A DNA stretch of 47,008 nucleotides, taken from IMG/VR virus record IMGVR_UViG_3300045747_000694, positions 106,165 through 153,172 of that record, one strand, 5' to 3'. Under the pieces are notes generated by a model. It did no database searches. It was not told where the DNA came from and saw only the letters and a list, made by a program, of their open reading frames with translations. This document shows, piece after piece, positions 2,516-47,008 of the stretch (within the stretch, counting starts at the first letter, position 1; the number at the start of each line of letters is the position of its first letter). Position numbers and translations under genes: made by a program. Origin of the DNA: a virus.

Positions 2516-3970
2516 ATGGCCGCTAGCGCCGCCGCAACGAAGGCCACGGCGAAGGCCAAGCCGTCGACCCCCGTGAAGACCAACGGGCCCGCCCTGATGA
2601 AGGTCGCGGTGCCGCCTGAGCGCTTCGCCGACTCGAACCAGAAGACGTCGGTCGCCGCGCGGGGCAAGAACAACGTCCGGCGCCCCACGAGCGGCATCAC
2701 GCTGCGAGACGAGACCTTCGCCTCGATCCGTCTCGTCTCGGGGGACGGGGTCAACCAGAGGATCATCGACGCGGGCAGCCGGCTCCCGAACCCCGACAAG
2801 AGCGGGGAACCTCTGACCGTCAAGGTCGGAGACAAGACCTACGTGGCCAACGAGGTCTACTCGAACTTCCTCCTTCAGAACATCGCGGAGGAGCGCTCGG
2901 AGAAGGTGCAGGTGCTGGAGACCTTCGGCGAGCCCTACATCTTCCTCTTCGGAGAGCGGCCGCGCGTCCTGAACTGCCAGGGCATCCTGCTCAACACCTG
3001 GGACTTCAACTGGGAAGCGGAGTGGTGGGCCAACTACGACAACTTCCTCCGCGGCACGAAGTGCGTCGAGAACGATGCCCGCGTCTACATGGCCTTCGAC
3101 AACACGCTGGTCGGTGGCTACATCCTCTCTTCGAGCGCCACGAAGGTCGCGCAGGAGAGGCACTTCGTCCAGTTCCAGTTCCAGCTCTTCGTCACCTACT
3201 ACGAGAGCTTCTCGAACCTCGGTGATCCTAGCGTCTCTCCTTTCGGGGATCTCGCCTACTCTGGTAACGACGCGGCGGCTATCACCGCCGTGGGAGGGCC
3301 GAAGTACCCCATCGACGGCATCTTCGAGGGAGGACAGCGTATCTCCGTAGATGCTGCTGGTAACGTCACGGGCACCGACAACTACAAGCAGGCGGTCAAG
3401 GACGCGCAGCCAAGCACCTTGGCGCAGAGTTGGAGGAACATTCAGCAGGCCACTCGCTCCGTGCTCAGCACCGTGTCGCAGGTCTGGGAGGGAGAGGTGA
3501 TCAAGGTCCCGGACGGCTTCTCCGGGATGTTTGCCTTCGATGAGCAGGTGCAGGTGAAGGAGCGCAAGGACCTCACGAGCCAGACCATCAGGTACACCAC
3601 CTTCTCCGAGAACGATTCTGAGTACGTGGGTACCAGCTCCCACTACGGCTCTGCCGACCTGAGGTTCAATGGCCTCGGTGGCGGCTTCGTACAGGACTTC
3701 ACCGAGGCCAACAGGGCCTCGGCGCAAGCAGCCAAGTTCTTCAAGGACAACGGCATCACTCCTGGGCCCAGTGTGGCGGAGAACCTCGGCAAGCTCGTGA
3801 AGCAGGCGCGTGCGGGGCTGGTGGCTGTGAACGCGGCCACCGCCATCGCAGGCTTCGCTCGTCATGGCATCCAGCCCGCCACCCCTGACCTGTCTGGCTC
3901 CGTCTTCAACTGGAGCAACAACTACGGTGGGGCGATGAAGCGCTCTACCAGCAACTCCTACCCGGAGTAG
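2516..3970 (+). CDS. Structural (tail/baseplate-type) protein, 484 aa; ends at an in-frame TAG directly followed by the next ORF in the same frame
   Basis: Good RBS (GAGGAG) 7-9 nt upstream of the ATG. Beta-rich sequence (FDNTLVGGYILSSSATKVAQERHFVQFQFQLFV). The TAG stop at 3968-3970 is in the same frame as ORF 4061..7048. Confidence 0.75.
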   Translation: MAASAAATKATAKAKPSTPVKTNGPALMKVAVPPERFADSNQKTSVAARGKNNVRRPTSGITLRDETFASIRLVSGDGVNQRIIDAGSRLPNPDKSGEPLTVKVGDKTYVANEVYSNFLLQNIAEERSEKVQVLETFGEPYIFLFGERPRVLNCQGILLNTWDFNWEAEWWANYDNFLRGTKCVENDARVYMAFDNTLVGGYILSSSATKVAQERHFVQFQFQLFVTYYESFSNLGDPSVSPFGDLAYSGNDAAAITAVGGPKYPIDGIFEGGQRISVDAAGNVTGTDNYKQAVKDAQPSTLAQSWRNIQQATRSVLSTVSQVWEGEVIKVPDGFSGMFAFDEQVQVKERKDLTSQTIRYTTFSENDSEYVGTSSHYGSADLRFNGLGGGFVQDFTEANRASAQAAKFFKDNGITPGPSVAENLGKLVKQARAGLVAVNAATAIAGFARHGIQPATPDLSGSVFNWSNNYGGAMKRSTSNSYPE

Positions 3971-4060
3971 CCACTGTCTGCCATCGGCAAGCCACTTCGC
4001 CTCCGGCTCTTCCTCGAGGGCGTCGAGATCCCCATCGTCGCGGCTCAGGTCTCGATCGGG

Positions 4061-7048
4061 ATGAACTCGCCGGCGGCGGCATCCCTTCAGGTCGTTCCTA
4101 CGGACGCCGGGCTCTACCTCCGCCCGCGGACCATGGTGCACCTCTTCTACCTCGACGAGAGGGTGACGGAGACGAAGACCGGTCGGTCCGTCAGCCGCTC
4201 GCTGCGGGACTACAAGCTGCTCTTCTGTGGGGAGATCATCGCCCAGTCGATGCAGCAGACGCCACAGAGCCGGGGTCTGGTGCTCCAGTGCGTCGACTTC
4301 TCCTCCTACTGGGACTCGGCGCACCTGACTGCCATCGAGTACGGACCTGGGGGCAACTGGGCCACTCACTCGGCGGCGGTGTCCGGGTCCAACTCCGGCC
4401 TCGTGGACGACATCGTCAACCAGATGCCGGAGAAGCTGGTGCAGTGGCTCCGGCAGACGCCGCGCACTCCCGGACTGGCGACGGTCGACGGTCTGGCCGG
4501 GGGCATCATCCGCATGCTCGAGGCCATCGGCGGAGTGCCGGGGCATGAGCGCGGGGTGAACGACTTCTTCACCGTTGCTGAGCTGCGCTGCAAGCTCCTC
4601 CAGCAGATCACCGCCGAGGAGAACGACAACACGGCCTACAGGCTGCTCAAGGGGAAGGTCTTCGACGAGTGGGTGCGGAACGGGCTCTCGAACATGGGGC
4701 AGCAGGTCACCTTCCGCGACGTGATGAAGCTGCTCTTCCAGTACGTCTACTATGAGATGGTCCCCAACCCTGCCGCGAAGTACTCGCCGGCGATCGGCCA
4801 GGGAGGGTCGAAGACGAACACAGGTACCTCTTCTCTCCTGAAGACTGCGGAAGGCGGAAGCGCCAAGGTCACCATCTCCGGCGTCATCCAGGACCTGGGG
4901 GACTTCGTTGGTAAGACCGAAGCCTCAGGGGACTGGAAGAACTACCTCTCGGCGTTCTCCTCGTTGATCATGGGGGCAAAGAAGACGCTCGCGAAGCTGA
5001 CGAGCGGGGAGATCGGGAAGGAAGCTCGACAGGTGACGAGCTTCTTGGATGCGGCGTCTCAGAAGCTCGATGCCACCATGAAGGGGATCAAGCCGGGCAT
5101 GGTGGTGGCTGGGTTGCCTGAGACGGAGCAGAGCCTGGATGCGGAGATCAATGCGGTGCTGGAGCCGTTGAAGTCCGCCTTGGGCCTCATCACGAAGAGC
5201 CAGGACCATGCGTACTCGGTCACCAGCTCGACGGCGAGGACCGAGAGGCTCAGCACGCAGATCCTCCGCCCCGACTGTTGGTTCGCTCCGCCCCCGGTCT
5301 GCAACGTCATCTTCCCGGAGCAGTACGCGCAGCTCCAGTACGACAGGAACTTCCTCGGAGAGGTGACGAGGACGCTGGTGTGGATGAGCAACACATTGGT
5401 GGGGAACGACAAGCTGCTCGCAGACAAGGTACTCGCGCCGAATCCCACCTCCTTCAAGGACACTGGCTTGATGGGGGTGAAGGGCAGCCTGGGGTACCGG
5501 GAGCTGATGCCGCATGAGTACCACACAGGGATCGTGCCTCGCGAAGAGTGGCTCCCGAACACGGCGGCGACGTCGGCGGAAGGGCAGAGGACCGCGACGG
5601 AAGCGGCGATCAACAGTGATGTACTGTCCTGGGGTCAACGGACGGCGCTGTACCTCTTCTACAAGTACCGATTCGCTCAGCGCAGCGCCACCCTCGGCGG
5701 GCGGTTCAACCCCGGTCTCGTCTGCGGGTTCCCTGCTCTCGTGATTCGAGGACCGTACACGCCCACGGCCATGAACCTCACGGAGGCGCTCGACAACGCG
5801 GACGCCCTCGGCGCTCCTGTGCACCTGCTCGGCATGATCGGAACGCTGAGCCATTCCGTGGGGCAGGATGGGGGGACGTCTTCCTTCACGATGCACCACG
5901 TCAGGCACCACAACGGTTCCGACGACGAGTACCTGAACCTCATTCGAGGTCTCCGCACCGCTTCCCACACCTACGAGGAGGACCTGTCTCTCGCCAAGAT
6001 CAACGCCATGCCGGAGGGGACCGACAAGAAGAAGAGGCTGGAGTTCCTCGTGGGGTGCACCACGCAGGGGACCACGCCACCCCCACCCCCTGTCGCCAAG
6101 GCGGACGCCCAAGACGGCAACCTGGTGGAGATCGAGGAGGCGAACGACCAGATCCCGCCGGATGGCACCACCAAGTCTGGGAGGGTCTACATCCCGACCA
6201 ACTGCCGCATCAAGAGAGGCATGCCCGGCCTCTACGGCAAGGGGAAGGTCACATCCATCGTCGTGGTGAAGACCTCTCGGAGCAAGGTTGAGGGCGGCCT
6301 CGCCTTCGACCAGGTGAGGGTCTCTTGGACACAAGACCAAGACCTGCCAGTGGCGCAGCCCATCGAGCTCATCCTTCGTCCCAGGTCCTGGTTCTCTCCG
6401 AAGTACTCCAACGAGCTTGTGGGTCAGGAGATCTACCAGCCCTTCTTCGGGTGCAACTCCATCATCGACGAGTTCAAGGCAACCGTCGGAGACACCTCTT
6501 CCTCACCGGATGCGCCGGCCGCCATCGAGGAGGAGGGGAAGTACAAGCTCGACTCTTCGACGACCACTGTCGAGAGCGCGGAACTCAACTACGCTGACAA
6601 GATGAAGCACAGCGTGGAGCGTTCGGCCAACGCTCTGGCCTACCTCTACGGCAAGGTGAAGGAGCTGCGCGGAGACGTCGAGGACTTCATCCAGCAGTAC
6701 ACCTACCGCCCCATCGCCACGAAGGAAGAGATCCTCGGGTCGGACGACCTGGAGTTCGACGTCTTCACCAACGGCTCGGTGGAGGCCAAGACGGTGCCGG
6801 CGCCCGGCGGCGTCGGTCCTCCCTACGTCCCGACGGTGGGCTTCCACAGCACGGCGGTCCACCAGCAGATCGTCGAGAGCAAGGTCCCACTGGCGGGGCT
6901 GGTGAAGGACTACGCCACCAAGCTCACCCGCATCAACTCGACAGGACAGCCCACGGAGATCCAGGCGAAGTACGATGTGCGCCGGGACAAGCGGGGCAGG
7001 GTGATGGACTACTACAACTCCCTGAGCAAGAGGGGCCTCAGAGGTTAG
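4061..7048 (+). CDS. Large structural protein (at least 995 aa; the ORF is open and coding-like from 3971)
   Basis: Long GC3-biased ORF. Codons 3971-4060 (PLSAIGKPLRLRLFLEGVEIPIVAAQVSIG) are in frame and look coding, but contain no ATG/GTG/TTG. Coordinates are given from the first ATG. Confidence 0.8.
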   Translation: MNSPAAASLQVVPTDAGLYLRPRTMVHLFYLDERVTETKTGRSVSRSLRDYKLLFCGEIIAQSMQQTPQSRGLVLQCVDFSSYWDSAHLTAIEYGPGGNWATHSAAVSGSNSGLVDDIVNQMPEKLVQWLRQTPRTPGLATVDGLAGGIIRMLEAIGGVPGHERGVNDFFTVAELRCKLLQQITAEENDNTAYRLLKGKVFDEWVRNGLSNMGQQVTFRDVMKLLFQYVYYEMVPNPAAKYSPAIGQGGSKTNTGTSSLLKTAEGGSAKVTISGVIQDLGDFVGKTEASGDWKNYLSAFSSLIMGAKKTLAKLTSGEIGKEARQVTSFLDAASQKLDATMKGIKPGMVVAGLPETEQSLDAEINAVLEPLKSALGLITKSQDHAYSVTSSTARTERLSTQILRPDCWFAPPPVCNVIFPEQYAQLQYDRNFLGEVTRTLVWMSNTLVGNDKLLADKVLAPNPTSFKDTGLMGVKGSLGYRELMPHEYHTGIVPREEWLPNTAATSAEGQRTATEAAINSDVLSWGQRTALYLFYKYRFAQRSATLGGRFNPGLVCGFPALVIRGPYTPTAMNLTEALDNADALGAPVHLLGMIGTLSHSVGQDGGTSSFTMHHVRHHNGSDDEYLNLIRGLRTASHTYEEDLSLAKINAMPEGTDKKKRLEFLVGCTTQGTTPPPPPVAKADAQDGNLVEIEEANDQIPPDGTTKSGRVYIPTNCRIKRGMPGLYGKGKVTSIVVVKTSRSKVEGGLAFDQVRVSWTQDQDLPVAQPIELILRPRSWFSPKYSNELVGQEIYQPFFGCNSIIDEFKATVGDTSSSPDAPAAIEEEGKYKLDSSTTTVESAELNYADKMKHSVERSANALAYLYGKVKELRGDVEDFIQQYTYRPIATKEEILGSDDLEFDVFTNGSVEAKTVPAPGGVGPPYVPTVGFHSTAVHQQIVESKVPLAGLVKDYATKLTRINSTGQPTEIQAKYDVRRDKRGRVMDYYNSLSKRGLRG

Positions 7049-13500: not shown

Positions 13501-14371
13501 AACCGGGCCCGCCGGAGCAACCGGTGCGACCGGCGTGACGGGAGCTCGAGGCGCGACCGGGGTCACGGGAGCCACTGGCCCGCAGGGCTCTCCTGGCCCA
13601 ACGGGCGCCGCGATCACGGGAGCCATCGGACCGCAAGGCGTGACTGGCTGGACTGGCCCTGTCGGGCCGCAGGGTCCCACCGGAGCAGCCATCACTGGTG
13701 CAACCGGTCCTGCTGGTCCGACAGGTGCGACTGGCGCGATTGGGCCGACCGGTCCTGCCGGCAGCGGCGCAGTGAAGACGCTGAACCAGGCCTACTGGGA
13801 CGGCGGTACCGGCCCCGGCGGCGTGGGCGGAGAGATCGACCTCAACGCCACCATCGGACCGGTACGCCTCATCGGCTCCGGTGCGGCATCCGGCGGCGTC
13901 TACTTCCAGGTGGCAGACGCCGCCGGCGGCCTGCCTCTCTTCGAGGTGCGCGAGGGCGGTGGCCGCGGCGTCATCATGATCCCGCGCATCGAGCTCGGCG
14001 GCACGCCCCTCACCCCGGCCAACTTCTCGCTCTCTCGTTGGGGCTCGGGTGCGTCTTCCCCCGGCAACTACGGCGTGACGGGAGTCTCCTGCTCCGACGC
14101 CGGCGGGTCGTTCACCGTCGTCGCGGGGCAGACGGGGTACTCGCCAGCGCCCCAGATCACCATCAACTTCAAGGATGGTCCTCGAGCGGGCAACCCCTTC
14201 GTCCTCGCTCGCGTGATGAACCCGTGCATCCCTACGAACGCGAGCCTCTGGGGCTACAGCGTCATCAACCCGGTGCTCATCACCCAGAGCCCGACCTTCA
14301 TCACGATGATGATCCCGGGCTCCCCCACGAACCGCTGCTCCATCACCATCCAGTTCGTCTCCTTCGCATAA
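10568..14371 (+). CDS. Collagen-like fibre protein (1267 aa): about 1060 aa of Thr-rich Gly-X-Y repeats plus a roughly 200-aa beta-rich C-terminal globular domain (BclA-like architecture)
   Basis: Continuous G-P/A/V-T/Q triplets ([13 protein letters not shown]...). A recurrent GAAITGA interruption occurs about 14 times. Non-collagenous C-terminus begins around [18 protein letters not shown] start with an AGAGG RBS. Confidence 0.9.
10700..13760 (+). repeat. Triplet (9/18-nt) coding tandem repeats encoding the Gly-X-Y collagen-like region
   Basis: Reiterated GGN-CCN/GCN/GTN-ACN/CAG units. They create spurious long ORFs in all six frames. Confidence 0.85.
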
Positions 14372-26474: not shown

Positions 26475-26477
26475 CGC

Positions 26478-33558: not shown

Positions 33559-33561
33559 CCG

Positions 33562-36500
33562 ATGGCGACCTTCAACTCAGGAGGATTCGGAACCGTCTCG
33601 TCCCTGGTGGAGAGGCCGACAGCCGTAGTCGTTGGCCTGCCCTCGGTGGCTGTTCTTGGGGCAACGGTTCGGCTCGACGGGTCGGGGAGCGTCAACCCCA
33701 CCACCACCGAGCTCGTCTACACGTGGGCCATCACCGCGGCGCCCATCGGGTCGAAGACCCCCTACGAGCCCTTCAAGCAGATCACCGAGGACTGGTCCTC
33801 TGTCTGGTTCTCCCCGGACCTCGTGGGCGAGTACATCATCGAGCTCACCGTCTCCTCCGGCAACTTCGAGAGCAAGGCGCAGACGAGGATCTCGGTCCGC
33901 GCCATCCTCATCCCGGACGGCCGCGCCATCGTCCCGGACGGCAAGTTCATCTGGAGCTACCTGCGCGACGTGTGGCAGCAGGTGGAGGACAGGCAGATCT
34001 TCGAGACCCTCTGGTCGGCTCTCATCCAGATCTGCGGTGCCGAGCTGCTGAAGCTCTACCAGTTCGACTTCAACAAGAGCATCAGGGACATCCAGGAGAA
34101 GATGCAGCGCCGGTGGCTGGCCTACGAGCCGCGGCTCGAGCTCGACCCCGCCGGCATGACCGCCTTCCTTGGGAACGAGGAGGCCGGGCAGGGAGGCTCC
34201 ACGCAGGCGCTGGGCAGGGAGGCGAAGGCCGTCATCTTCGCCTCCAACGAGCTCATCGTGGTCGAAGGGTCCGTCATCGCCGACGTCCCCCCTTACCTCG
34301 ACATCCTCTACAGCCGCTCCTCTTCGAACGTCGGAGAGTACCGGACCATGGGGACGAACGCCGGAGCCACTGGCTACCGGATCAACGGGAGCATCCCCTC
34401 CACAACGGCCGACCGCGTCCCCGGGCCGACCTCGGTGTTCACCCCGCAGTTCCCCTTCCAGTCGCGGACGTGGGCTCTCCAGGCCCCGCCGGCTCCTCAG
34501 TACGCGCTGAAGATGTCGATGTACCCGCCAACGGTGGACGAGCTCTCCGACATCTACAGTGTGGCGGGGTCCATCGGGGATGTCCGGGTCGGGGACGTGG
34601 CGTACATCGCGACGGGCGTCAACGTCGGCTTCTACCGCATCACCGCGTCCACGGGCATCTTCATCGAGGTGGACCGCGCCCCGCCGAGCTCTTCCCAGCC
34701 CTCGGACCAGGTGATCATCTTCCGCCCGGTGGGCATCAAGTTCGCTCCCCTCCCGGGGGCCGTCTCGACGAGCTTCACCGTTCCGCAGGCCACCCCCGCT
34801 TCCGCCATCGCCAACCTCGCCAAGGGTCGGCTCATCACCATCGGCGGCAGGGCCTACCCTGTCCTGCGCTCGACGCTCGACATCCGCCAGCCGGTCCCGA
34901 CCTTCATCATCACGACGGACGACTCGGAGGTCGTGACTGGCCGGTCGAACCTGAACTGGCGAGTGCCCAACACTCTCGTGTCCCCGACCGTGGACTTCGA
35001 GGCGAAGGGCGTAACCTCCGGAGACCTGCTCCTCTTCGACGTCAGGATGGAGGGCGGGAGCGGTGTCGCTCAGGTGGCGGCACAGGTCATCGGGGTGCAC
35101 GGCTACAGGCTTGCCTTCGTGGTGACGACCGCGGTGCTCTCCCCCGGAGAGGGCTACACCGTCTCGGACTCGACCATCGCCGAGGCCTTCGGTGCTCTCG
35201 GCATTCGCTCGGTCACCATCTCTCCGACTGGGGAAGTGTCCTTCTCGGGCGACGCGGCGGTGCTCTACACCTTCATCAAGAGCGGCCTCTTCGCACAGCA
35301 GTTCTGGAACACGGAGATCGACCTGTCGACCGGCTTCGTCACGCCGGTGGGCCGCTTCTTCGTCACCCCTCGTGCTGTCATCCGGAACAGCAAGATCCCG
35401 GTGGACGACACGGTCTTGTCCGTGCCCGTGCTCCAAGAGTGGGTGGCGCAGCCAACGCTCGTCGAGAAGGACGGGAAGGTCTACCAGAAGAAGGGTGATG
35501 TCGAGTACGAGCTCCCACGGCGGCCCGTGATGCTGGTGGAGGGGAACGACTACCTCACCGACGGCACCACTGCCTTCGATGACACCGTCCCGTTCCTCAC
35601 TGGGACCGCCACGCTCGAGGTGGAGGGGGCCGGCTTCCTCTCCCGGCAGGTGGCTCCTGGGGACAAGGTGTCCATCCCCACCGCCGTCAGCCTGAACCTG
35701 CCCTACATCGTCGTGGAGGTGCTGTCTGAGGACAAGCTCCTGCTCTCGACGATGATCCCGGCGCTGCTCGTGCCCGTGACCACGGAGAGGGTCGTCGTCA
35801 CGCGCAGGGCGGGCGGCAAGTACCTCAGGCTCCTTCCCGGCGGGTTCACCGCGGCGAAGCCTGCCCCGGATCGGTTCTGGGCCGAGGTCAGCTACTTCGA
35901 CAACTCGGACGCCATCGAGGCGAACTTCGGCATCATGGTGGGCCTCAAGAGAGAGGACCTCGACAAGATCACCACGCGGGTCTCCTACCGCCAGGCGGTG
36001 GCAGGGCTGATGTTCGCCTACACCCGCGGCTCGACCATCGAGAAGGTGCGCCTCGGCGCTCAGATCCTGCTCGGCCTCCCCTTCGCAGAGCACCGCGGCA
36101 TCATCAGGTCGATGGAGAGCAACTACCGCACCGACGCTTCTGGCGTCCCCATCCTCGGGCGGCTTCTCATCGAGGACGTCGATGACGTCGGAGTCCCGGC
36201 AGGCATCCAGCGCGTCTACACCTACCCCATCGACAACCAGTCCTCGGACCTCTCCGGCGTGGAGGTCAACCCAGCCACCGGGGCCATCTACGCGGTCGAC
36301 GACATCGTGGAGGCCTTCGCTCCTCTGGCGAAGGGGGTCGGGGTCAGCGACTACCTGACGGACCCGCTCAACAGCCAGTCCTCCGGCATCTCGCAGCTCC
36401 AGAAGTTCCACTCCTTCAGGCTGCGGGCCAACGACAACCTCTTCAACATCGAGGAGATCACTCTCGTCTCTTCGTTCCTCCGTCGCATCACCCCGTCCTA

Positions 36501-37851
36501 CGTGGCCTTCATCATCTCGGAGGTGATGCAGTTCGGGGATGATGTCTCCGTCCTGGACTCCGTCGCGATGGTGCTCAGCCGTGGCGGGAGGTGGGGCGGG
36601 CTCGCCGGCCTCAACGACAACGTGGGGACCGGCCTCGGCACTCCCTTCATGTTCGACCAGATGGACTTCTCGGGCCACCACCTGATCCGCTGGGACGATG
36701 GCGTCTTCAAGCTGCGCCGGTCAGGGAAGGACGCCGTCGTTGCAGACGTCGACCACGTGACCGGCACGGTCAGCTTCTCGGGAGACATCGTCTCCACGGT
36801 CATGCCGGGCGCACTCATCAAGGTCGGCGACTACGTCATCTTCGGAAGCGGCCCGAACGCGGGGATCTACCCCATCACGGTGGTGACGGAGGGCGTGGGG
36901 GTGACCGTCGATACGACGGGGAAGTCGCTCACGTCGGGCATCGACCAGCTCTTCCTTGTCGCCAGGAAGATCAGCGAGGTCATCCGCTCTGGTCTCTGCA
37001 ACCGCATCCAGATCGTGGACGCCAGCGGGGTCATGGGGACAACGCGGTACGGGACCAACACCACGGACCCCTACGGCTTCGTCATCGACGCGGGGGACGT
37101 CATCGCCGACATCCCCAGCTCTGCTACGCGAACCGCACGATTCACGGTGACAGGGAACGTCTTGGACGGGGTCATGCCGGGAGACTGGCTCCTCACCTGC
37201 GGAGGTCGGCTCCTCATCACGGATGTGCAGGCCATGATCGTGACGGTCATCGGAGAGACAGACTTCACGCCGGAGGGGAACGCCCCTTACGTCATTGTCC
37301 GCCCCAGCCTGCTCTCTTCCCCATCGGAGAGCTCGTGGTCCATCGTCTCGGACGGCTCTTCGTACTCTTGCGACGATGACCTTCGGCTGATGGCCGACCC
37401 GGGCGACTACCTCGAGGTCGTGTCCCCTACCGGCTTCGCCGAGGTCTATGTCGTCGATGCGAAGTGGAACAACTACCTCCCCGTCCTCCCGGCGGACACC
37501 TACACCGTCCGGCTGAAGAAGAAGAACCGGCCGCAGGGGCCCCTCGGCTTCGACTTCATCCTGAGCGGCGACATCAACGACCAGGTGGACATCTACCTCC
37601 GGTCCCCGAACACCATCATCTCCGACGCCACGGGGACGATCACCATCCCGGCGCATGAGGCGCTCGACATGGGCGCGCAGATCGGGGACTTCATCCGCCT
37701 CTACGACATCACCCAGATCGACAACGGCTACGGCCCTGGGGTCTACCCAATCGCCTCCATCGCTGCCAGCGGAGGAGATGACGTTGTTGTACTCTCCGGC
37801 GGCATGGTTGACGGTGGGACGACCGCCTGGTCCCTTCTCAGGAGACGATGA
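33562..37851 (+). CDS. Giant structural protein (1429 aa) with an N-terminal PKD-like Ig domain; baseplate/fibre-associated
   Basis: PKD-type motif VRLDGSGSVNPTTTELVYTWAITAAP. Long beta-rich body. Operon position between baseplate and fibre genes. Confidence 0.8.
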   Translation: MATFNSGGFGTVSSLVERPTAVVVGLPSVAVLGATVRLDGSGSVNPTTTELVYTWAITAAPIGSKTPYEPFKQITEDWSSVWFSPDLVGEYIIELTVSSGNFESKAQTRISVRAILIPDGRAIVPDGKFIWSYLRDVWQQVEDRQIFETLWSALIQICGAELLKLYQFDFNKSIRDIQEKMQRRWLAYEPRLELDPAGMTAFLGNEEAGQGGSTQALGREAKAVIFASNELIVVEGSVIADVPPYLDILYSRSSSNVGEYRTMGTNAGATGYRINGSIPSTTADRVPGPTSVFTPQFPFQSRTWALQAPPAPQYALKMSMYPPTVDELSDIYSVAGSIGDVRVGDVAYIATGVNVGFYRITASTGIFIEVDRAPPSSSQPSDQVIIFRPVGIKFAPLPGAVSTSFTVPQATPASAIANLAKGRLITIGGRAYPVLRSTLDIRQPVPTFIITTDDSEVVTGRSNLNWRVPNTLVSPTVDFEAKGVTSGDLLLFDVRMEGGSGVAQVAAQVIGVHGYRLAFVVTTAVLSPGEGYTVSDSTIAEAFGALGIRSVTISPTGEVSFSGDAAVLYTFIKSGLFAQQFWNTEIDLSTGFVTPVGRFFVTPRAVIRNSKIPVDDTVLSVPVLQEWVAQPTLVEKDGKVYQKKGDVEYELPRRPVMLVEGNDYLTDGTTAFDDTVPFLTGTATLEVEGAGFLSRQVAPGDKVSIPTAVSLNLPYIVVEVLSEDKLLLSTMIPALLVPVTTERVVVTRRAGGKYLRLLPGGFTAAKPAPDRFWAEVSYFDNSDAIEANFGIMVGLKREDLDKITTRVSYRQAVAGLMFAYTRGSTIEKVRLGAQILLGLPFAEHRGIIRSMESNYRTDASGVPILGRLLIEDVDDVGVPAGIQRVYTYPIDNQSSDLSGVEVNPATGAIYAVDDIVEAFAPLAKGVGVSDYLTDPLNSQSSGISQLQKFHSFRLRANDNLFNIEEITLVSSFLRRITPSYVAFIISEVMQFGDDVSVLDSVAMVLSRGGRWGGLAGLNDNVGTGLGTPFMFDQMDFSGHHLIRWDDGVFKLRRSGKDAVVADVDHVTGTVSFSGDIVSTVMPGALIKVGDYVIFGSGPNAGIYPITVVTEGVGVTVDTTGKSLTSGIDQLFLVARKISEVIRSGLCNRIQIVDASGVMGTTRYGTNTTDPYGFVIDAGDVIADIPSSATRTARFTVTGNVLDGVMPGDWLLTCGGRLLITDVQAMIVTVIGETDFTPEGNAPYVIVRPSLLSSPSESSWSIVSDGSSYSCDDDLRLMADPGDYLEVVSPTGFAEVYVVDAKWNNYLPVLPADTYTVRLKKKNRPQGPLGFDFILSGDINDQVDIYLRSPNTIISDATGTITIPAHEALDMGAQIGDFIRLYDITQIDNGYGPGVYPIASIAASGGDDVVVLSGGMVDGGTTAWSLLRRR

Positions 37852-43232: not shown

Positions 43233-43238
43233 CGGCCT

Positions 43239-43259
43239 CCCGCAGGATTGGCCTGCGGG
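43239..43259 (+). promoter_or_regulatory. Perfect 8-bp stem / 5-nt loop hairpin (CCCGCAGG attgg CCTGCGGG) between the spanin-like gene and the next gene. No U-tract follows.
   Basis: Inverted repeat read directly from the sequence. Function (attenuator, processing site or weak terminator) not determined. Confidence 0.4.
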
Positions 43260-43277
43260 GTAACAAGGAGGTCGCAG

Positions 43278-43541
43278 ATGGACAGGAAGCTCGAGGTTGG
43301 CAGCAGCATCATCTTCGTGGATGCGAAGGCGGTTCGTCACAACGCGCTGGTCACCATCGTGTGGGGTCAGGTCGAGTCCTACAAGGCGGAGAACGGCGAG
43401 CCCGGTTGCAACCTGGTCTTCATCAGCGGGGACCCGGATCGCAACGACTCGTGCGGTCGGCAGATGGAGCGCTCGACCAGCGTGGTGCACAAGACGAAGC
43501 AGCCCGCCCACGGGATGTACTGGTGCTGGCCGGATGAGTAG
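43278..43541 (+). CDS. Hypothetical protein (87 aa)
   Basis: AAGGAGG RBS 6 nt upstream of ATG 43278. The longer track start at 43248 lacks an RBS. Confidence 0.5.
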   Translation: MDRKLEVGSSIIFVDAKAVRHNALVTIVWGQVESYKAENGEPGCNLVFISGDPDRNDSCGRQMERSTSVVHKTKQPAHGMYWCWPDE

Positions 43542-43606
43542 CCACTAGGGGCGAACGGGAACCTTCCAATGGGACCTGGGACCTCCACTATCTGCGACCA
43601 CCCATC

Positions 43607-44313: not shown

Positions 44314-44332
44314 CCCTGAACAGCAGTGACAG

Positions 44333-44406
44333 TGCCCCCGGCAGGACTCGAACCTGCGGCCGTGCGCTTAGAAGGCGCCTGCTCTCGTCCTCTGAGCTAC
44401 GGGGGC
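44333..44406 (-). tRNA. tRNA-Arg (anticodon TCT)
   Basis: Manual cloverleaf: acceptor GCCCCCG/CGGGGGC; T-arm GCAGG-TTCGAGT-CCTGC; anticodon loop CTTCTAA; no encoded CCA. Confidence 0.75.
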
Positions 44407-44409
44407 ATG

Positions 44410-44500
44410 TGGCGGAGAGAGAGGGATTCGAACCCTCGCTTTGATGTGATCGCAGACTGGTTTAGCAAACCAGCGGCATGAGCCACTCGCCCATCTCTCC
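44410..44500 (-). tRNA. tRNA-Ser (GCT), class II with long variable arm, CCA encoded
   Basis: Acceptor GGAGAGA; anticodon arm CTGGT-TTGCTAA-ACCAG; T-loop TTCGAAT; discriminator G. Confidence 0.8.
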
Positions 44501-44503
44501 ATG

Positions 44504-44591
44504 TGGCGGAAACGGTGGGATTCGAACCCACGGAGACTTGCGCCTCGCCAGCTTTCCAAGCTGGTGCCTTGAGCCACTCGGCCACGTTTCC
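44504..44591 (-). tRNA. tRNA-Ser (GGA), class II, CCA encoded
   Basis: Anticodon arm CCAGC-TTGGAAA-GCTGG; long variable arm; T-arm GTGGG-TTCGAAT-CCCAC. Confidence 0.8.
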
Positions 44592-44595
44592 ATGA

Positions 44596-44683
44596 TGGCG
44601 GAAGAGGAAGGATTCGAACCTTCGAGGACTTGCGCCCTGCCCGCTTTCGAGACGGGTACCTTGAGCCACTCGGTCACTCTTCC
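44596..44683 (-). tRNA. tRNA-Ser (CGA), class II, CCA encoded
   Basis: Anticodon loop CTCGAAA; long variable arm; T-arm GAAGG-TTCGAAT-CCTTC. Confidence 0.75.
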
Positions 44684-44691
44684 AGAAGGAT

Positions 44692-44711
44692 GCCTCAGAG
44701 AAGGCTGAGGC
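44692..44711. promoter_or_regulatory. 7-bp hairpin (GCCTCAG agaagg CTGAGGC) in the only long (36-nt) spacer of the tRNA array
   Basis: Perfect inverted repeat between tRNA-Ser(CGA) and tRNA-Ser(TGA). Possible processing site or remnant. Confidence 0.35.
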
Positions 44712-44719
44712 GCCCTGTG

Positions 44720-44809
44720 TGGCGGAAGAGGAGAGATTCGAACTCTCGGGAAGCTTGCGCCTCCTGCGGGTTTCAAAGCCGCTGGTTTGAGCCACTCACC
44801 CACTCTTCC
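44720..44809 (-). tRNA. tRNA-Ser (TGA), class II, CCA encoded
   Basis: Anticodon loop TTTGAAA (one mismatch at the stem closure); long variable arm; T-arm GAGAG-TTCGAAT-CTCTC. Confidence 0.7.
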
Positions 44810-44810
44810 C

Positions 44811-45359
44811 TTACTCGTCGTGCTCGAGCTCTCCCTGCCAGTAGCCGTAGTCCGTGAGGAGCTGCTTCCAGGACTGGGGCACCTTCTTGTCCAGGAGGAA
44901 GGTGAGCTTCATCGTGGTCTGGAGGTGTTCCGGCTTCGCTGGGGTCGAGAGGATGTGCATCCTCGCCTGCGCCGGCGTGCAGTCCCTCTTCTTCTGGTTG
45001 CAAGGGGTGCAGCAGACGACGACGTTGGTCCAGTTGGTCTGGCCGCCTTGCGCCCGCGGCGTGACGTGGTCGTAGGTGAAGTCCGACCTCGGAACCTTGT
45101 TGCCGCAGTACTGGCAGCGGCCCTTGTCCCTGGCGTAGACGTTCTCTCGGCTGAACTTCACCGCCGGCTTCCTGCGCCGGATGGTGGAGAGGAACCGGAT
45201 GACCGAGGGCATCTTGAACTCCAAGGTCACCGACCTCACCGTCTTGCTCTCGTACTCCTGCACGACTTCGACCTTGCCCTCCCAGAGCAGGGTCACCGCG
45301 CGTTGCCAGGGAACCCGAGCCACGGGTTCATAGGCATTCGTCAGCACCAGCGTGTCCAT
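44811..45359 (-). CDS. HNH endonuclease (homing-endonuclease-like) embedded in the tRNA array
   Basis: HNH/zinc-finger motif CQYCGNKVPRSDFTYDHVTPRAQGGQTNWTNVVVCCTPCNQKK. Start at MDTLV with an AAAGGAGAG RBS. The longer track ORF would overlap tRNA genes. Confidence 0.8.
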   Translation of the reverse strand: MDTLVLTNAYEPVARVPWQRAVTLLWEGKVEVVQEYESKTVRSVTLEFKMPSVIRFLSTIRRRKPAVKFSRENVYARDKGRCQYCGNKVPRSDFTYDHVTPRAQGGQTNWTNVVVCCTPCNQKKRDCTPAQARMHILSTPAKPEHLQTTMKLTFLLDKKVPQSWKQLLTDYGYWQGELEHDE

Positions 45360-45388
45360 CGGGCTCTCCTTTCTTGGTGTCGTGCTGC

Positions 45389-45465
45389 GTGGTACCCCAG
45401 GAGGGACTCGAACCCTCATCGACGCGGAGTTTGAGTCCGCCGCATGTACCATTCTGCTACTGGGG
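45389..45465 (-). tRNA. Atypical tRNA: anticodon CAA (Leu by anticodon) but class-I structure with a short variable loop; CCA encoded
   Basis: Acceptor GCCCCAG/CTGGGGT; discriminator A; anticodon arm GCGGA-CTCAAAC-TCCGC; T-arm GAGGG-TTCGAGT-CCCTC; no long variable arm. Confidence 0.55.
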
Positions 45466-45468
45466 CGT

Positions 45469-45554
45469 GTGGTGGCCAAGGAGAGAGTCGAACTCTCACG
45501 GTGTTACCCGCACGCTTCTGAGGCGTGTGCGTCTACCAGTTCCGCCACTCGGCC
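45469..45554 (-). tRNA. tRNA-Leu (CAG), class II, CCA encoded
   Basis: Anticodon arm CACGC-CTCAGAA-GCGTG; 13-nt variable arm; T-arm GAGAG-TTCGACT-CTCTC. Confidence 0.8.
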
Positions 45555-45558
45555 ATGA

Positions 45559-45643
45559 TGGTACTCAGGAGGGGAGTCGAACCCCTACGGTGTTACCCGC
45601 CGGCACCTCAAGCCGGTGCGTCTACCAGTTCCGCCACCTGAGC
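45559..45643 (-). tRNA. tRNA-Leu (GAG), class II, CCA encoded
   Basis: Anticodon arm CCGGC-TTGAGGT-GCCGG; long variable arm; T-arm AGGGG-TTCGACT-CCCCT. Confidence 0.8.
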
Positions 45644-45652
45644 GTGAAGAAG

Positions 45653-45725
45653 TACAGGGCCTGGGAATCGAACCCAGCAACTCCGGAGTGTGGAACCGGG
45701 GGAGTCACCAGCTTCCTCGCCCTGC
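45653..45725 (-). tRNA. Atypical tRNA, probably tRNA-Val (CAC). The loop TCCACAC has C at position 33, and there is a T:T mismatch closing the stem.
   Basis: Acceptor GCAGGGC/GCCCTGT; T-arm CTGGG-TTCGATT-CCCAG; anticodon arm CCGG(T)-TCCACAC-(T)CCGG. Isotype uncertain; CCA/Trp is an alternative reading. Confidence 0.45.
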
Positions 45726-45731
45726 ATGAAG

Positions 45732-45803
45732 TTGCGAGCCAGGGATTCGAACCCTGATGTCCGTGGTTATGGGCCACGTGCCTTGCCAGTCGGCCAGCTC
45801 GCA
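45732..45803 (-). tRNA. tRNA with anticodon CAT (elongator Met or Ile2-lysidine type); loop CCCATAA has C33
   Basis: Acceptor TGCGAGC/GCTCGCA; anticodon arm CGTGG-CCCATAA-CCACG; T-arm CAGGG-TTCGAAT-CCCTG. Confidence 0.65.
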
Positions 45804-45808
45804 GTGAG

Positions 45809-45886
45809 TGGTTGCGGGCACGAGGAATCGAACCTCGCTGTTCTCGGGTTATGAGCCCGATGTGTAAGCCGTTTCACTCGCCCGCA
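45809..45886 (-). tRNA. Initiator-like tRNA-fMet (CAT), CCA encoded
   Basis: Anticodon arm TCGGG-CTCATAA-CCCGA (three G:C pairs) and 3' end ...CCCGCAACCA, identical to bacterial initiator tRNA. One extra nucleotide in the acceptor/T-stem junction makes the 5' boundary uncertain by about 1 nt. Confidence 0.65.
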
Positions 45887-45889
45887 GCT

Positions 45890-45966
45890 TGGTGCTCCTG
45901 GAGGGACTCGAACCCCCGGCCCGTTCTTTAGGAAAGAACTGCTCTTGTCCACTGAGCTACAGGAGC
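45890..45966 (-). tRNA. tRNA-Arg (CCT), CCA encoded
   Basis: Anticodon arm GTTCT-TTCCTAA-AGAAC; T-arm GGGGG-TTCGAGT-CCCTC. Confidence 0.8.
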
Positions 45967-45971
45967 GAAGA

Positions 45972-46049
45972 TGGTGCGCCCGGCCAGACTCGAACTGGCG
46001 GCCTCTGGTTTCGGAAACCAGCGCTCTCGTCCATCTGAGCTACGGGCGC
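45972..46049 (-). tRNA. tRNA-Arg (CCG), CCA encoded
   Basis: Anticodon arm CTGGT-TTCCGAA-ACCAG; T-arm GCCAG-TTCGAGT-CTGGC. Confidence 0.8.
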
Positions 46050-46056
46050 GAAGAAG

Positions 46057-46131
46057 TCTCCTCGGAGGGAGTCGAACCCCCGGCCTCATGGTTCGTAGCC
46101 ATGCGCTCTGGTCCAGCTGAGCTACGAGGAG
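46057..46131 (-). tRNA. tRNA-Arg (ACG), no encoded CCA
   Basis: Anticodon arm CATGG-CTACGAA-CCATG; T-arm GGGGG-TTCGACT-CCCTC. Confidence 0.75.
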
Positions 46132-46135
46132 ATGA

Positions 46136-46209
46136 TGGTGCTCCTAGAGAGAATCGAACTCTCGCCTCACCCTTACCAAGGGCGTGCTCTGCCTTAGAGC
46201 TACAGGAGC
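46136..46209 (-). tRNA. tRNA-Thr (GGT), CCA encoded
   Basis: Anticodon arm CGCCC-TTGGTAA-GGGTG; T-arm GAGAG-TTCGATT-CTCTC. Confidence 0.75.
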
Positions 46210-46213
46210 AAGA

Positions 46214-46288
46214 TGGTGGATGTGATCGGGGTCGAACCGACAACCTTCGGCTTGCAAAGCCGCTGCGCTCCCATTGCGCTACACACCC
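46214..46288 (-). tRNA. tRNA-Ala (TGC) with the G3:U70 identity pair, CCA encoded
   Basis: Acceptor GGGTGTG/CACATCC gives a G3-T70 wobble; anticodon loop TTTGCAA. Confidence 0.8.
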
Positions 46289-46294
46289 ATGAAG

Positions 46295-46366
46295 TGGACC
46301 CCCAGGGAGTTGAACCCTGACCTCTGCCTTGCCGAGGCAGCGTCCAGACCGCTAGACGAGGAGCCC
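46295..46366 (-). tRNA. tRNA-Ala (GGC) with G3:U70; loop TCGGCAA has C33; no encoded CCA
   Basis: Acceptor GGGCTCC/GGGGTCC (G3-T70); anticodon arm CTGCC-TCGGCAA-GGCAG; T-arm CAGGG-TTCAACT-CCCTG. Confidence 0.6.
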
Positions 46367-46372
46367 ATGAAG

Positions 46373-46445
46373 TACGCGTGGAGGGAATCGAACCCCCGAT
46401 CTCTGCCATGTCAAGGCAGCACTCTGGCCGCTGAGCTACACGCGC
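46373..46445 (-). tRNA. tRNA-Val (GAC), no encoded CCA
   Basis: Anticodon arm CTGCC-TTGACAT-GGCAG; T-arm GGGGG-TTCGATT-CCCTC. Confidence 0.75.
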
Positions 46446-46449
46446 ATGC

Positions 46450-46525
46450 TGGTGGACCCGAGGGGAGTTGAACCCCTTGCCTCTCGGATGCGAACCGAGC
46501 GCTCTACCAGGTGAGCTACGGGCCC
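46450..46525 (-). tRNA. tRNA-Ala (CGC) with G3:U70, CCA encoded
   Basis: Acceptor GGGCCCG/CGGGTCC; anticodon arm CTCGG-TTCGCAT-CCGAG. Confidence 0.8.
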
Positions 46526-46531
46526 ATGAAG

Positions 46532-46607
46532 TGGTGCGCCCTCTCGGAGTCGAACCGAGATGTCTCGCTCTTCAGGCGAGTGCTTGAACCGTCACAGCCA
46601 AAGGCGC
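46532..46607 (-). tRNA. tRNA-Phe (GAA), CCA encoded
   Basis: Anticodon arm CTCGC-CTGAAGA-GCGAG; T-arm CTCGG-TTCGACT-CCGAG. Confidence 0.75.
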
Positions 46608-46614
46608 AAAGGAA

Positions 46615-46689
46615 TGGCGGGGCCACGGGGAGTTGAACCCCGCTCTCCGGCGTGACAGGCCGGTGTCCTGACCGATGAACGATGACCCC
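46615..46689 (-). tRNA. tRNA-Asp (GTC), discriminator G, CCA encoded
   Basis: Anticodon arm CCGGC-CTGTCAC-GCCGG; T-arm CGGGG-TTCAACT-CCCCG. Confidence 0.8.
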
Positions 46690-46694
46690 TCTGC

Positions 46695-46768
46695 TGGGGT
46701 GAGGTACGGGAGTTGAACCCGCGTTGCGAGAGCCACAATCTCGTGTCCTACCGTTGGACGAACCTCAC
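46695..46768 (-). tRNA. tRNA-His (GTG), discriminator C73, CCA encoded; no encoded G-1
   Basis: Anticodon arm CGAGA-TTGTGGC-TCTCG; acceptor GTGAGGT/ACCTCAC; the base preceding G1 is T. Confidence 0.75.
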
Positions 46769-46771
46769 ACT

Positions 46772-46845
46772 TGGTCCCCCAGCCAGGGGTCGAACCTGGA
46801 CCTGTCGCTTATCAGGCGACTGCTCTACCTCTGAGCTACCGGGGG
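46772..46845 (-). tRNA. tRNA-Ile (GAT), CCA encoded
   Basis: Anticodon arm GTCGC-CTGATAA-GCGAC; T-arm CCAGG-TTCGACC-CCTGG. Confidence 0.8.
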
Positions 46846-46849
46846 AAGA

Positions 46850-46926
46850 TGGTCAAGGTGAGAGGAATCGAACCTCCGGCCTCCTGGTCCCGAACCAGGC
46901 GCTCTGCCAGTCTGAGCTACACCTTG
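46850..46926 (-). tRNA. tRNA-Pro (CGG), CCA encoded
   Basis: Anticodon arm CCTGG-TTCGGGA-CCAGG; T-arm GGAGG-TTCGATT-CCTCT. Confidence 0.8.
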
Positions 46927-46933
46927 ATGAAGA

Positions 46934-47008
46934 TGGTCAGCGTGAGAGGATTCGGACCTCCGGCCTCCTGCACCCCAAGCAGGCGCTCTACCAGGCTGAG
47001 CTACACGC
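46934..47008 (-). tRNA. tRNA-Pro (GGG), 5'-truncated by the window edge; unusual T-loop TCCGAAT
   Basis: Anticodon arm CCTGC-TTGGGGT-GCAGG; CCA encoded; the last 2 nt of the 5' acceptor strand lie outside the window. Confidence 0.65.

What the first reader, a model, noticed from the sequence alone, without database searches (positions are those of the whole stretch)
2516..7048. Two large structural ORFs in the same frame separated only by one TAG; coding-like sequence continues without a start codon
ORF 2516..3970 ends at TAG 3968-3970. The next 90 nt (3971-4060) are in the same frame, have coding-type GC3 bias and encode a plausible beta-strand N-terminus (PLSAIGKPLRLRLFLEGVEIPIVAAQVSIG). 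They contain no ATG, GTG or TTG. Possible explanations are programmed amber readthrough giving a fusion of about 1510 aa, initiation at a non-canonical codon (CTG 3974), a recent nonsense mutation, or a sequencing error. TAG is used as a normal stop in at least eight other genes here, so readthrough would have to be partial, as with Qbeta A1. No tRNA with a CTA anticodon is present in the part of the tRNA array inside the window.
Basis: seen in the sequence. Interest (0 to 1): 0.6.

Follow-up and report, generated by a model that had tools for sequence, protein, structure and literature searches.

The report
CTG start codon on phage baseplate hub
The "startless" beginning of a large phage tail gene is most likely a rare CTG start codon three bases after the previous gene's stop, kept in three related phage lineages. 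It is a modest curiosity that gene callers get wrong, not a readthrough fusion protein.

Summary
ORF1 (2516..3970) ends at TAG 3968-3970. The next 90 nt are in frame, coding-like, and contain no ATG, GTG or TTG.

The CTG sits 6 nt after GGAG, which is the usual ribosome-binding spacing in this window. The same junction, GGAG-TAG-CCN-CTG, occurs in two other lineages with 93% and 57% protein identity. The 29 startless codons are under purifying selection.

Across relatives, the ORF1 stop (TAA, TGA or TAG) and the ORF2 start are always tightly juxtaposed, often as stop-NNN-start, and are often out of frame. So the shared frame is a by-product of a 3-nt spacer. No ORF1-ORF2 fusion occurs among the 120 listed homologues.

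One complication: an odd tRNA with a CUA anticodon lies just beyond the window end in a near-identical contig and also in the 57% lineage. It is absent at the syntenic site in the 93% lineage, which keeps the CTG junction.

Best reading: ORF2 runs 3974..7048 (1024 aa), starting at CUG and coupled to ORF1 termination (confidence about 0.7). Amber readthrough remains a minor rival.

The parts
2516..3970 (+). ORF1, 484 aa, a conserved virion-module protein of unknown fold. It is the homologue of Salmonella phage Arash gp6, annotated 'structural protein'. Ends at TAG.
   Evidence: No Pfam, PHROG or PDB sequence match. The single-sequence AF2 model is unusable, with pLDDT 31.
3964..3967 (+). GGAG Shine-Dalgarno-like motif inside the last codons of ORF1, 6 nt upstream of CTG 3974.
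   Evidence: GGAG or AGGAG at 5-7 nt is the usual arrangement for SD-led genes in this window (starts 2303, 2516, 8075, 9724, 38499). Conserved in L001 and L004.
3968..3970 (+). TAG stop of ORF1.
   Evidence: Conserved as TAG in L001, L004, L007 and L033, but it is TGA or TAA in other relatives with the same 3-nt spacer.
3971..3973 (+). 3-nt spacer (CCA) between the stop and the start.
   Evidence: It is CCC in L001. The same stop-NNN-start design occurs in L007, L016, L025, L030, L031, L033, L034 and L057, and in this window at 26472-26480 and 33556-33564.
3974..3976 (+). CTG, the proposed non-canonical initiation codon of ORF2.
   Evidence: It aligns with the first codon of homologues, for example P0003 MSAIGKPLNLRLFLEG against window LSAIGKPLRLRLFLEG. 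The same junction design with a TTG start is seen in L007, one base different from CTG.
3974..4060 (+). 29 codons of conserved N-terminal coding sequence with no canonical start.
   Evidence: Synonymous-dominated divergence. Residues 10-29 form three confident beta-strands of the N-terminal domain in the model, with pLDDT 81-89.
3974..7048 (+). ORF2 as re-annotated: 1024 aa, baseplate central hub-like protein.
4061..4063 (+). First canonical ATG. It is an internal Met codon, not the start.
   Evidence: It is ATC in L004. It has only a weak AGGT 10 nt upstream. Starting here would remove three conserved beta-strands.
44332..47008 (-). tRNA array, given as context. There are 25 tRNAs inside the window and none has a CTA anticodon. 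The array runs off the window end.
   Evidence: A near-identical contig continues the array (141-nt overlap, 1 mismatch). About 1.25 kb past the last array tRNA it carries a tRNA with anticodon CTA.

Best explanation
ORF1 and ORF2 are two separate genes joined by a tight translational-coupling junction: GGAG, TAG, 3 nt, start. In this small clade the ORF2 start codon is the near-cognate CTG (3974) instead of ATG, GTG or TTG.

The proposed mechanism is as follows. Ribosomes finishing ORF1, or 30S subunits recruited by the GGAG 6 nt upstream, initiate with initiator tRNA on CUG. They make a 1024-aa baseplate hub protein at a low rate. This would suit a protein needed in only a few copies per virion.

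The shared reading frame is a by-product of the 3-nt spacer. What is shown: positional homology of the CTG with canonical starts, the ribosome-binding site, conservation, and purifying selection. What is inferred: initiation at CUG itself, the coupling, and the low-expression rationale.
For: 1. Homologues begin exactly at the CTG position with ATG, GTG or TTG. This holds for 118 of the 120 listed proteins once late gene calls are corrected and for about 35 loci.
2. Relatives with the same junction design use a canonical start: TAG-aac-TTG (L007, one base from CTG) and TAG-tac-GTG (L033).
3. The junction GGAG-TAG-CCN-CTG is conserved in three lineages: the window, L001-L003/L010 at 93% amino-acid identity, and L004 at 57%.
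4. L004 lacks the ATG at the 4061 position, so the next canonical start would delete 53 conserved residues.
5. Codons 3974-4060 show 4 synonymous/0 non-synonymous changes against L001 and 6/2 against L004. They encode confident beta-strands of the hub N-terminal domain.
6. GGAG at 6 nt matches the spacing used by other genes in this window.
7. Stop-NNN-ATG in-frame junctions with TAA occur twice more in the window. Relatives use TAA, TGA or TAG, and many are out of frame, as overlaps or spacers of 2, 8 or 10 nt.
8. The L001-type genome keeps the CTG junction but lacks the tRNA(CUA) module at the syntenic site, between two conserved flanking genes.
9. CUG initiates at about 1-2% of AUG in E. 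coli reporters (bioRxiv 10.1101/063800), so it is a workable weak start.
Against: There is no direct evidence of initiation, such as an N-terminal peptide or ribosome profiling. CUG is a poor start in E. coli, and the host here is unknown.

A conserved tRNA with a CUA anticodon exists in two of the three CTG lineages, so some in-frame readthrough of the TAG could occur as well. All three CTG genomes have TAG as the ORF1 stop and an in-frame downstream ORF, which is also what a readthrough model needs.

Absence of the tRNA from the whole L001-type genome was tested only at the syntenic site and by exact-pattern scans.
Confidence: 0.7

Rival explanations
1. Amber readthrough by the phage's own tRNA(CUA). 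The TAG at 3968 is partly decoded, giving an ORF1-hub fusion of about 1510 aa. This would occur either instead of, or in addition to, CUG initiation.
For: ORF2 is in frame with no intervening stop. A tRNA with anticodon CTA lies just past the window end in a near-identical contig (L035 3018-3092). It is also the only tRNA in 24 kb of the L004-type genome (L046 18666-18740).

The two copies differ by six compensatory pair changes spread over all four stems, while the anticodon loop is invariant. This indicates a functional RNA. Arrays of canonical-start relatives L036-L039 have no CTA tRNA.
Against: - L001-type keeps the same junction but lacks the tRNA module at the syntenic site.
- Relatives with the same 3-nt design use TAA or TGA, and many are out of frame.
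- No fused homologue occurs among the 120 listed.
- There is no stimulatory RNA structure: the folding z-score is +0.5.
- TAG is a common terminator here, ending 8 of 30 genes, most without tandem back-up stops. Efficient suppression would therefore be costly.
- The tRNA's loop is aberrant (G32, A33, C37), unique among the 43 array tRNAs.
- Large standard-code phages are known to carry CUA tRNAs with no identified target (XacN1, PMC5852040).
- Readthrough alone would leave no free hub protein, unlike every relative.
Confidence: 0.17
2. The true start is the first canonical codon, ATG 4061, giving a 995-aa hub. On this view the 90 nt upstream are untranslated or a decaying remnant.
For: ATG 4061 is the mechanical ORF start. 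Gene callers picked even later ATGs in the relatives (P0001 and P0002 start at MVHLF).
Against: The ATG is not conserved; it is ATC in L004. The upstream 29 codons evolve almost only synonymously. They align with the N-termini of more than 100 homologues and form confident strands of the hub domain. There is no good ribosome-binding site before 4061.
Confidence: 0.04
3. Sequencing or assembly error, or a very recent ATG/TTG-to-CTG or sense-to-TAG mutation in this one genome.
For: None beyond the general prior.
Against: The same junction is found in five further independent assemblies (L001-L004, L010) across two other lineages, alongside many synonymous differences.
Confidence: 0.01

Closest known systems
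Near-cognate (non-AUG/GUG/UUG) initiation in bacteria, such as CUG, AUU and AUC starts allowed in translation table 11. The E. coli infC AUU start is cited from my own knowledge.
   Same: A codon one base from a canonical start, preceded by a normal Shine-Dalgarno motif and occupying the position of the start in orthologues. CUG gave about 1-2% of AUG activity in E. coli reporters (10.1101/063800).
   Different: Here the weak codon is stably kept across lineages that have diverged to 57% protein identity, in a phage structural gene. It sits 3 nt after the upstream stop. No autoregulatory logic such as infC/IF3 is evident.
Translational coupling, or termination-reinitiation, at closely spaced stop and start codons in operons (own knowledge).
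   Same: The ORF1 stop and the ORF2 start lie within -4 to +12 nt of each other in nearly all relatives. The ribosome-binding site is embedded in the end of the upstream gene.
   Different: Coupling itself was not measured. The restart codon is CUG.
   Same: An in-frame ORF follows a single TAG. A CUA-anticodon tRNA is encoded by close relatives.
   Different: The stop type and frame are not conserved in the family. No fused homologues occur. TAG is a normal, frequent terminator, and no in-frame TAG was seen inside conserved genes of the window. One CTG lineage lacks the tRNA at the syntenic site.
Baseplate central hub proteins of contractile tails: T4 gp27, Mu gp44, the XkdQ class, and the VgrG N-terminal part.
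   Different: ORF2 is about three times longer than Mu gp44 and has large helical insertions. There is no detectable sequence similarity to any family (Pfam and PHROGs empty).
Salmonella phage Arash (OQ632216) and Vibrio phages D69, D181 and D148. These are the nearest isolates, at roughly 180-187 kb.
   Same: The ORF1 homologue is Arash gp6 'structural protein' (29% identity over 23% of ORF1). The local gene order is similar: a large structural protein, a roughly 69-aa ORF, then the ORF1 homologue.
   Different: The relationship is very distant. ORF2 has no tblastn match in the phage collection. The window phage is about 65% GC and is known only from metagenomes.

Membership tests
Gene with a non-canonical CUG initiation codon | The codon occupies the position of the canonical start codon in orthologues. 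| tested here: met
   ATG, GTG or TTG sits at the aligned codon in about 35 loci and 118 of 120 proteins.
Gene with a non-canonical CUG initiation codon | Shine-Dalgarno motif at functional spacing upstream. | tested here: met
   GGAG lies 6 nt upstream, the same spacing class as other genes in the window.
Gene with a non-canonical CUG initiation codon | Sequence immediately downstream is translated (purifying selection), and no canonical start is available. | tested here: met
   One search gives 4 synonymous/0 non-synonymous and 6/2 changes. Searches show no ATG, GTG or TTG, and L004 also lacks the downstream ATG.
Gene with a non-canonical CUG initiation codon | The protein N-terminus or an initiating ribosome is mapped to the codon. 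| not testable with these tools
   Needs N-terminal proteomics or initiation-site ribosome profiling.
Programmed stop-codon readthrough fusion (Q-beta A1-like or suppressor-tRNA dependent) | In-frame downstream ORF with no further stop. | tested here: met
Programmed stop-codon readthrough fusion (Q-beta A1-like or suppressor-tRNA dependent) | Stop identity and frame relation conserved among homologues, or fused versions exist. | tested here: not met
   Stops are TAA, TGA or TAG, and many relatives are out of frame. No fused protein occurs among the 120 hits. The relation is conserved only within the three-lineage CTG clade.
Programmed stop-codon readthrough fusion (Q-beta A1-like or suppressor-tRNA dependent) | Stimulatory RNA structure or context 3' of the stop. 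| tested here: not met
   Folding of 3940-4060 gives z = +0.51 against shuffles.
Programmed stop-codon readthrough fusion (Q-beta A1-like or suppressor-tRNA dependent) | A cognate suppressor tRNA is available in every genome that has the junction. | tested here: inconclusive
   Present in the window-type contig L035 and in L004-type L046/L050. Absent at the syntenic site in L001-type L042. The rest of that 198-kb contig was not read, apart from exact-pattern scans.
TAG-reassigned (code 15-like) phage | In-frame TAG codons inside conserved genes, and TAG depleted as a terminator. | tested here: not met
   All large ORFs of the window are intact under the standard code, and TAG ends 8 of 30 genes. 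The one in-frame TAG upstream of the PTH2-like ORF is not rescued by TAG decoding in L046, where a TGA lies 4 codons upstream.
Baseplate central hub (gp27 / Mu gp44 / XkdQ) | Hub fold with N-terminal beta-barrel domains. | tested here: met
Baseplate central hub (gp27 / Mu gp44 / XkdQ) | Sequence-family membership (Pfam or PHROG). | tested here: not met
   No Pfam or PHROG hit for ORF2 or for 21 homologues.

The most novel reading that the evidence does not exclude
The clade-specific tRNA is a dedicated natural recoding tRNA. Its anticodon loop G-A-C-U-A-C-A is invariant and aberrant, while its stems co-vary. It may act as an amber reader or as a GUAG quadruplet reader.

Two observations fit this. 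First, the loop is complementary over 6 nt to an invariant GUAGUC motif in the leader of the adjacent PTH2-like gene. That gene has no canonical start, and its frame is reached from a conserved 7-8-codon ATG-uORF by a +1 shift exactly at GUA-G. Second, the ORF1/ORF2 junction also reads GAG-UAG-CC.

If true, the same tRNA could produce some ORF1-hub fusion. That would make this a phage-encoded system of programmed recoding rather than a simple weak start codon.
Probability: 0.08. Interest if true: 0.8.

Novelty: new member of a known kind. Interest (0 to 1): 0.35.

Why it matters
First, it corrects the annotation. The hub gene starts at 3974, not 4061. Public gene calls for the two related lineages are truncated by 53 residues, which removes part of the conserved N-terminal domain.

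Second, it is a clean comparative example of a near-cognate CUG start being kept for a long evolutionary time in a phage structural gene, embedded in a stop-NNN-start coupling junction. This is a plausible way to fix a low hub-to-ORF1 synthesis ratio.

It sits next to a structured RNA and a startless PTH2-like gene. That module is arguably more interesting than the original finding and is directly testable.

Tried and rejected
- **Nucleotide and protein searches of the phage collection.** megablast found no match. tblastn with ORF2 found nothing. ORF1 gave only weak hits to Arash and Vibrio phages.
- **Family and structure searches for ORF1 and ORF2.** Pfam, PHROGs and a PDB profile search returned nothing.
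- **ORF1 single-sequence AF2 model.** pLDDT was 31, so it is unusable.
- **Other late-called homologues.** I suspected that P0010, P0077, P0086, P0109, P0110 and P0114 also had non-canonical starts. All have ATG, GTG or TTG at the conserved position, so those are gene-caller errors.
- **A chain of TAG-separated in-frame genes at 42462-44083.** I rejected this on checking frames. Only 42462/43248 share a frame, and the longer C39 homologues P0133 and P0134 do not align to the upstream ORF.
- **Locating a CTA tRNA in the L001-type 198-kb contig.** Only the window-type and L004-type copies matched.
- **Exact look-up of P0135**, a 100% identical protein on a 153-kb contig, failed.
- **Rfam search of the tRNA-to-PTH2 leader** returned only the tRNA.
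- **GTA-G avoidance in window genes**, as a test of the quadruplet idea. Nine of 24 GTA codons are followed by G, so there is no depletion and no support.
- **The genome-contig scan** gave only six distant MAG-binned phage contigs, all with canonical starts and no host clue.


Full report
**Observation.** The window is a roughly 65% GC phage segment with a long + strand structural module and a tRNA array at its 3' end. ORF1 (2516..3970, 484 aa) ends at TAG 3968-3970. The next 30 codons are in the same frame, read PLSAIGKPLRLRLFLEGVEIPIVAAQVSIG, and contain no ATG, GTG or TTG. The first canonical start is ATG 4061, and the frame stays open to TAG 7046-7048. GC3 of the 90 nt is 0.83, like the gene body. 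Among about 30 genes called crudely by GC3, this is the only one with a long coding-like startless 5' region. The description is correct.

ORF1 is a conserved partner gene that always lies immediately upstream. Its only named relative is Arash gp6, 'structural protein'. Its fold could not be determined.

**Where homologues start.** Of the 120 listed homologues, 111 begin with M, V or L four to six residues before the conserved KPLHLRLFLEG motif. P0003, for example, starts MSAIGKPLNLRLFLEG, so its Met aligns with the window's Leu codon CTG 3974-3976. Seven more were called late but have ATG, GTG or TTG at the conserved position in their DNA. The remaining two, P0001 (93% identical) and P0002 (57%), were called from an internal MVHLF. 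Their DNA shows the same junction as the window: ccGGAG TAG CC(C/A) CTG TC(C/T) GCC ATC GGC AA(A/G). P0002's genome (L004) has ATC where the window has ATG 4061. There, no canonical start exists for 53 conserved codons.

**Junction architecture across the family.** I tabulated the ORF1-stop to ORF2-start junction in about 35 further loci. The two genes are always tightly juxtaposed, from -4 to +12 nt.
- The start is ATG, GTG or TTG everywhere except in the three-lineage clade.
- The stop is TAA, TGA or TAG.
- The frame relation varies. There are ATGA and TAATG overlaps and spacers of 2, 8 and 10 nt (out of frame), and spacers of 0, 3, 9 and 12 nt (in frame).

The exact design stop-NNN-start recurs as TAG aac TTG (L007), TAG tac GTG (L033), TGA cct GTG (L034), TAA cca TTG (L030), TGA tcc ATG (L031) and TGA ccc ATG (L057). 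L007 differs from the window design only by T versus C in the first base of the start codon. The window itself has two more such junctions with TAA and ATG, at 26472-26480 and 33556-33564. The shared frame of ORF1 and ORF2 is therefore a consequence of a 3-nt spacer in a coupling junction, not a signature of readthrough. None of the 120 listed homologues is an ORF1-ORF2 fusion; their lengths run from 888 to 1218 aa.

**The startless stretch is translated.**
- From CTG to the codon before ATG 4061, the window differs from L001 at 4 codons, all synonymous.
- It differs from L004 at 8 codons: 6 synonymous and 2 conservative.
- In the model these residues form strands 10-14, 17-19 and 21-29 of the N-terminal hub domain, at pLDDT 81-89.
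- GGAG lies 6 nt upstream of CTG. GGAG or AGGAG at 5-7 nt is what other SD-led genes in the window use, whereas ATG 4061 has only AGGT at 10 nt.
- No unusual RNA structure surrounds the junction (z = +0.5).

**The suppressor-tRNA question.** The window's 26 predicted tRNAs include none with a CTA anticodon, but the array runs off the end. Contig IMGVR_UViG_3300045747_000648 overlaps the window's last 141 nt with one mismatch and continues the array. About 1.25 kb beyond the last array tRNA, ARAGORN and Rfam (51 bits) find a 74-75-nt tRNA with anticodon CTA.

The L004-type genome has no array downstream of the tail-fibre region, but it has exactly one tRNA in 24 kb, and it is the same one (L046 18666-18740). 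A metagenome scan found another copy in L050. The two versions differ by six compensatory pair changes across all four stems, while the nine bases CGACUACAG are invariant. It is thus a selected RNA. Its loop is aberrant, however: G32, A33 and C37, unique among the 43 tRNAs of the array.

Arrays of four canonical-start relatives lack it. In the L001-type genome, synteny is clean and the roughly 1-kb module is precisely absent. The flanking 293-aa and 60-aa gene homologues are 96 nt apart there. That genome nevertheless keeps GGAG-TAG-CCC-CTG. ORF2 expression in that lineage therefore does not depend on this tRNA, unless a copy sits elsewhere on the contig. Exact-pattern scans did not find one.

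TAG is also a frequent ordinary terminator here. It ends 8 of 30 genes, and only two of those have an immediate back-up stop. No conserved gene in the window is interrupted by TAG. Large standard-code phages with CUA tRNAs and no identifiable target are already on record (XacN1, PMC5852040).

**Conclusion on mechanism.** The best-supported reading is a separate hub gene, 3974..7048, that initiates at a near-cognate CUG positioned by GGAG and probably coupled to termination of ORF1. CUG gives about 1-2% of AUG initiation in E. coli reporters (10.1101/063800). A weak start would suit a hub present in few copies per virion; that link is inference. I put this reading at about 0.7. Readthrough of the TAG by the clade's tRNA(CUA), as an additional or alternative route to a 1510-aa fusion, is about 0.17. 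A start at ATG 4061 and artefact or recent mutation are essentially excluded.

**Side finding.** Directly 3' of the tRNA(CUA) lies a roughly 110-nt element. It is conserved between the two divergent genomes, has three compensatory pairs in the RNAalifold consensus and no Rfam match.

After it comes a PTH2-like ORF (Pfam PF01981, 23.2 bits against a cutoff of 23). Its conserved N-terminal HYVVIR precedes any ATG, GTG or TTG in L035, L046 and the more distant L039. A conserved ATG opens a 7-8-codon uORF in the -1 frame.

The invariant mRNA motif GUAGUC is complementary to tRNA loop bases GACUAC. Reading GUA-G as a quadruplet with CUAC would shift the uORF frame into the PTH2 frame. GTAGTC is rare on the coding strand: 2 occurrences against 7.7 expected in the window. 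This is only a hypothesis. It rests on two independent sequences, L039 lacks the tRNA, and GTA-G is not avoided in window genes.

**Novelty and score.** A conserved CUG start in a phage baseplate hub gene is a new example of a known phenomenon, namely near-cognate initiation at a coupling junction. It matters mainly for annotation and as a natural case of long-term retention of a weak start. I score interest at 0.35. The tRNA/PTH2 module raises the ceiling if the recoding idea proves true.

Noticed in passing
L035 3018-3092 (-) = L040 6744-6818 (+); L046 18666-18740 (-); L050 2603-2677 (-): A tRNA with anticodon CUA and an aberrant, invariant anticodon loop (G32, A33, C37; either a 6-bp anticodon stem or a 9-nt loop CGACUACAG). 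Six compensatory pair changes separate the two lineages. It lies just beyond the window's 3' end in a near-identical contig. It is absent at the syntenic site of the L001-type genome.
   Followed up: yes
L035 about 2905-3017 (-); L046 about 18555-18665 (-): A roughly 110-nt conserved structured RNA lies immediately 3' of the tRNA(CUA). The RNAalifold consensus has 3 compensatory pairs. There is no Rfam family match.
   Followed up: partly
L035 about 2540-2870 (-); L046 about 18179-18500 (-); L039 1446-1703 (-): A PTH2-like peptidyl-tRNA hydrolase ORF whose conserved N-terminus (HYVVIR) has no upstream canonical start. A conserved 7-8-codon ATG uORF lies in the -1 frame. An invariant GUAGUC motif is complementary to the tRNA loop GACUAC. 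A +1 shift at GUA-G would join the uORF to PTH2.
   Followed up: partly
window 26472-26480 and 33556-33564: Two more in-frame stop-NNN-start junctions (TAA cgc ATG and TAA ccg ATG) lie between large structural genes. This is the same coupling design as the ORF1/ORF2 junction.
   Followed up: yes
L029-L034 (proteins P0109, P0110, P0086, P0077, P0010, P0114, and P0106 by similarity): Public gene calls truncate seven further hub homologues even though a canonical ATG, GTG or TTG sits at the conserved position right after the upstream stop. This looks like systematic miscalling at tight stop-start junctions.
   Followed up: yes
window 3965-3975 and 43536-43546 (+); L042 16196: The 11-mer GAGTAGCCACT, which includes a TAG stop, occurs twice on the coding strand: at the end of ORF1 and at the end of the 97-aa ORF 43248..43541. 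The second site is conserved in the L001-type genome. Its meaning is unknown and it may be chance.
   Followed up: partly
window 44332-47008 (-) compared with L042 and L046: tRNA content differs sharply between close relatives. The window type has at least 43 tRNAs, the L004 type has a single tRNA(CUA) in the same region, and the L001 type has none within 22 kb. The window-type array lacks the tRNA-Tyr(GTA) that relative L036 has between Gly(GCC) and Lys(TTT); the corresponding gap is at L035 1298-1535.
   Followed up: partly
window 45809-45886 (-): One of the two tRNA-Met(CAT) genes has three G:C pairs next to the anticodon loop, an initiator-like feature, and an encoded CCA end. The phage may supply its own initiator tRNA.
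   Followed up: no
window 44811-45479 (-) and 43607-44083 (+): An HNH-like gene (CQYCGNKV...CNQKKRDC) sits inside the tRNA array, with relatives in the arrays of other phages. A peptidase C39-like gene lies just upstream of the array.
   Followed up: partly
window 37797-37893 (+): ARAGORN calls a 97-nt 'tRNA-Arg(CCT)' inside the 3' end of the 1429-aa gene 33562..37851. Its loop is tcCCTtc. It is probably a false positive.
   Followed up: no
window 10568-14371 (+): A 1267-aa ORF in a stretch of 72-75% GC, well above the window mean. Its L002 counterpart hits Pfam Collagen, so it is probably a collagen-like fibre gene.
   Followed up: no
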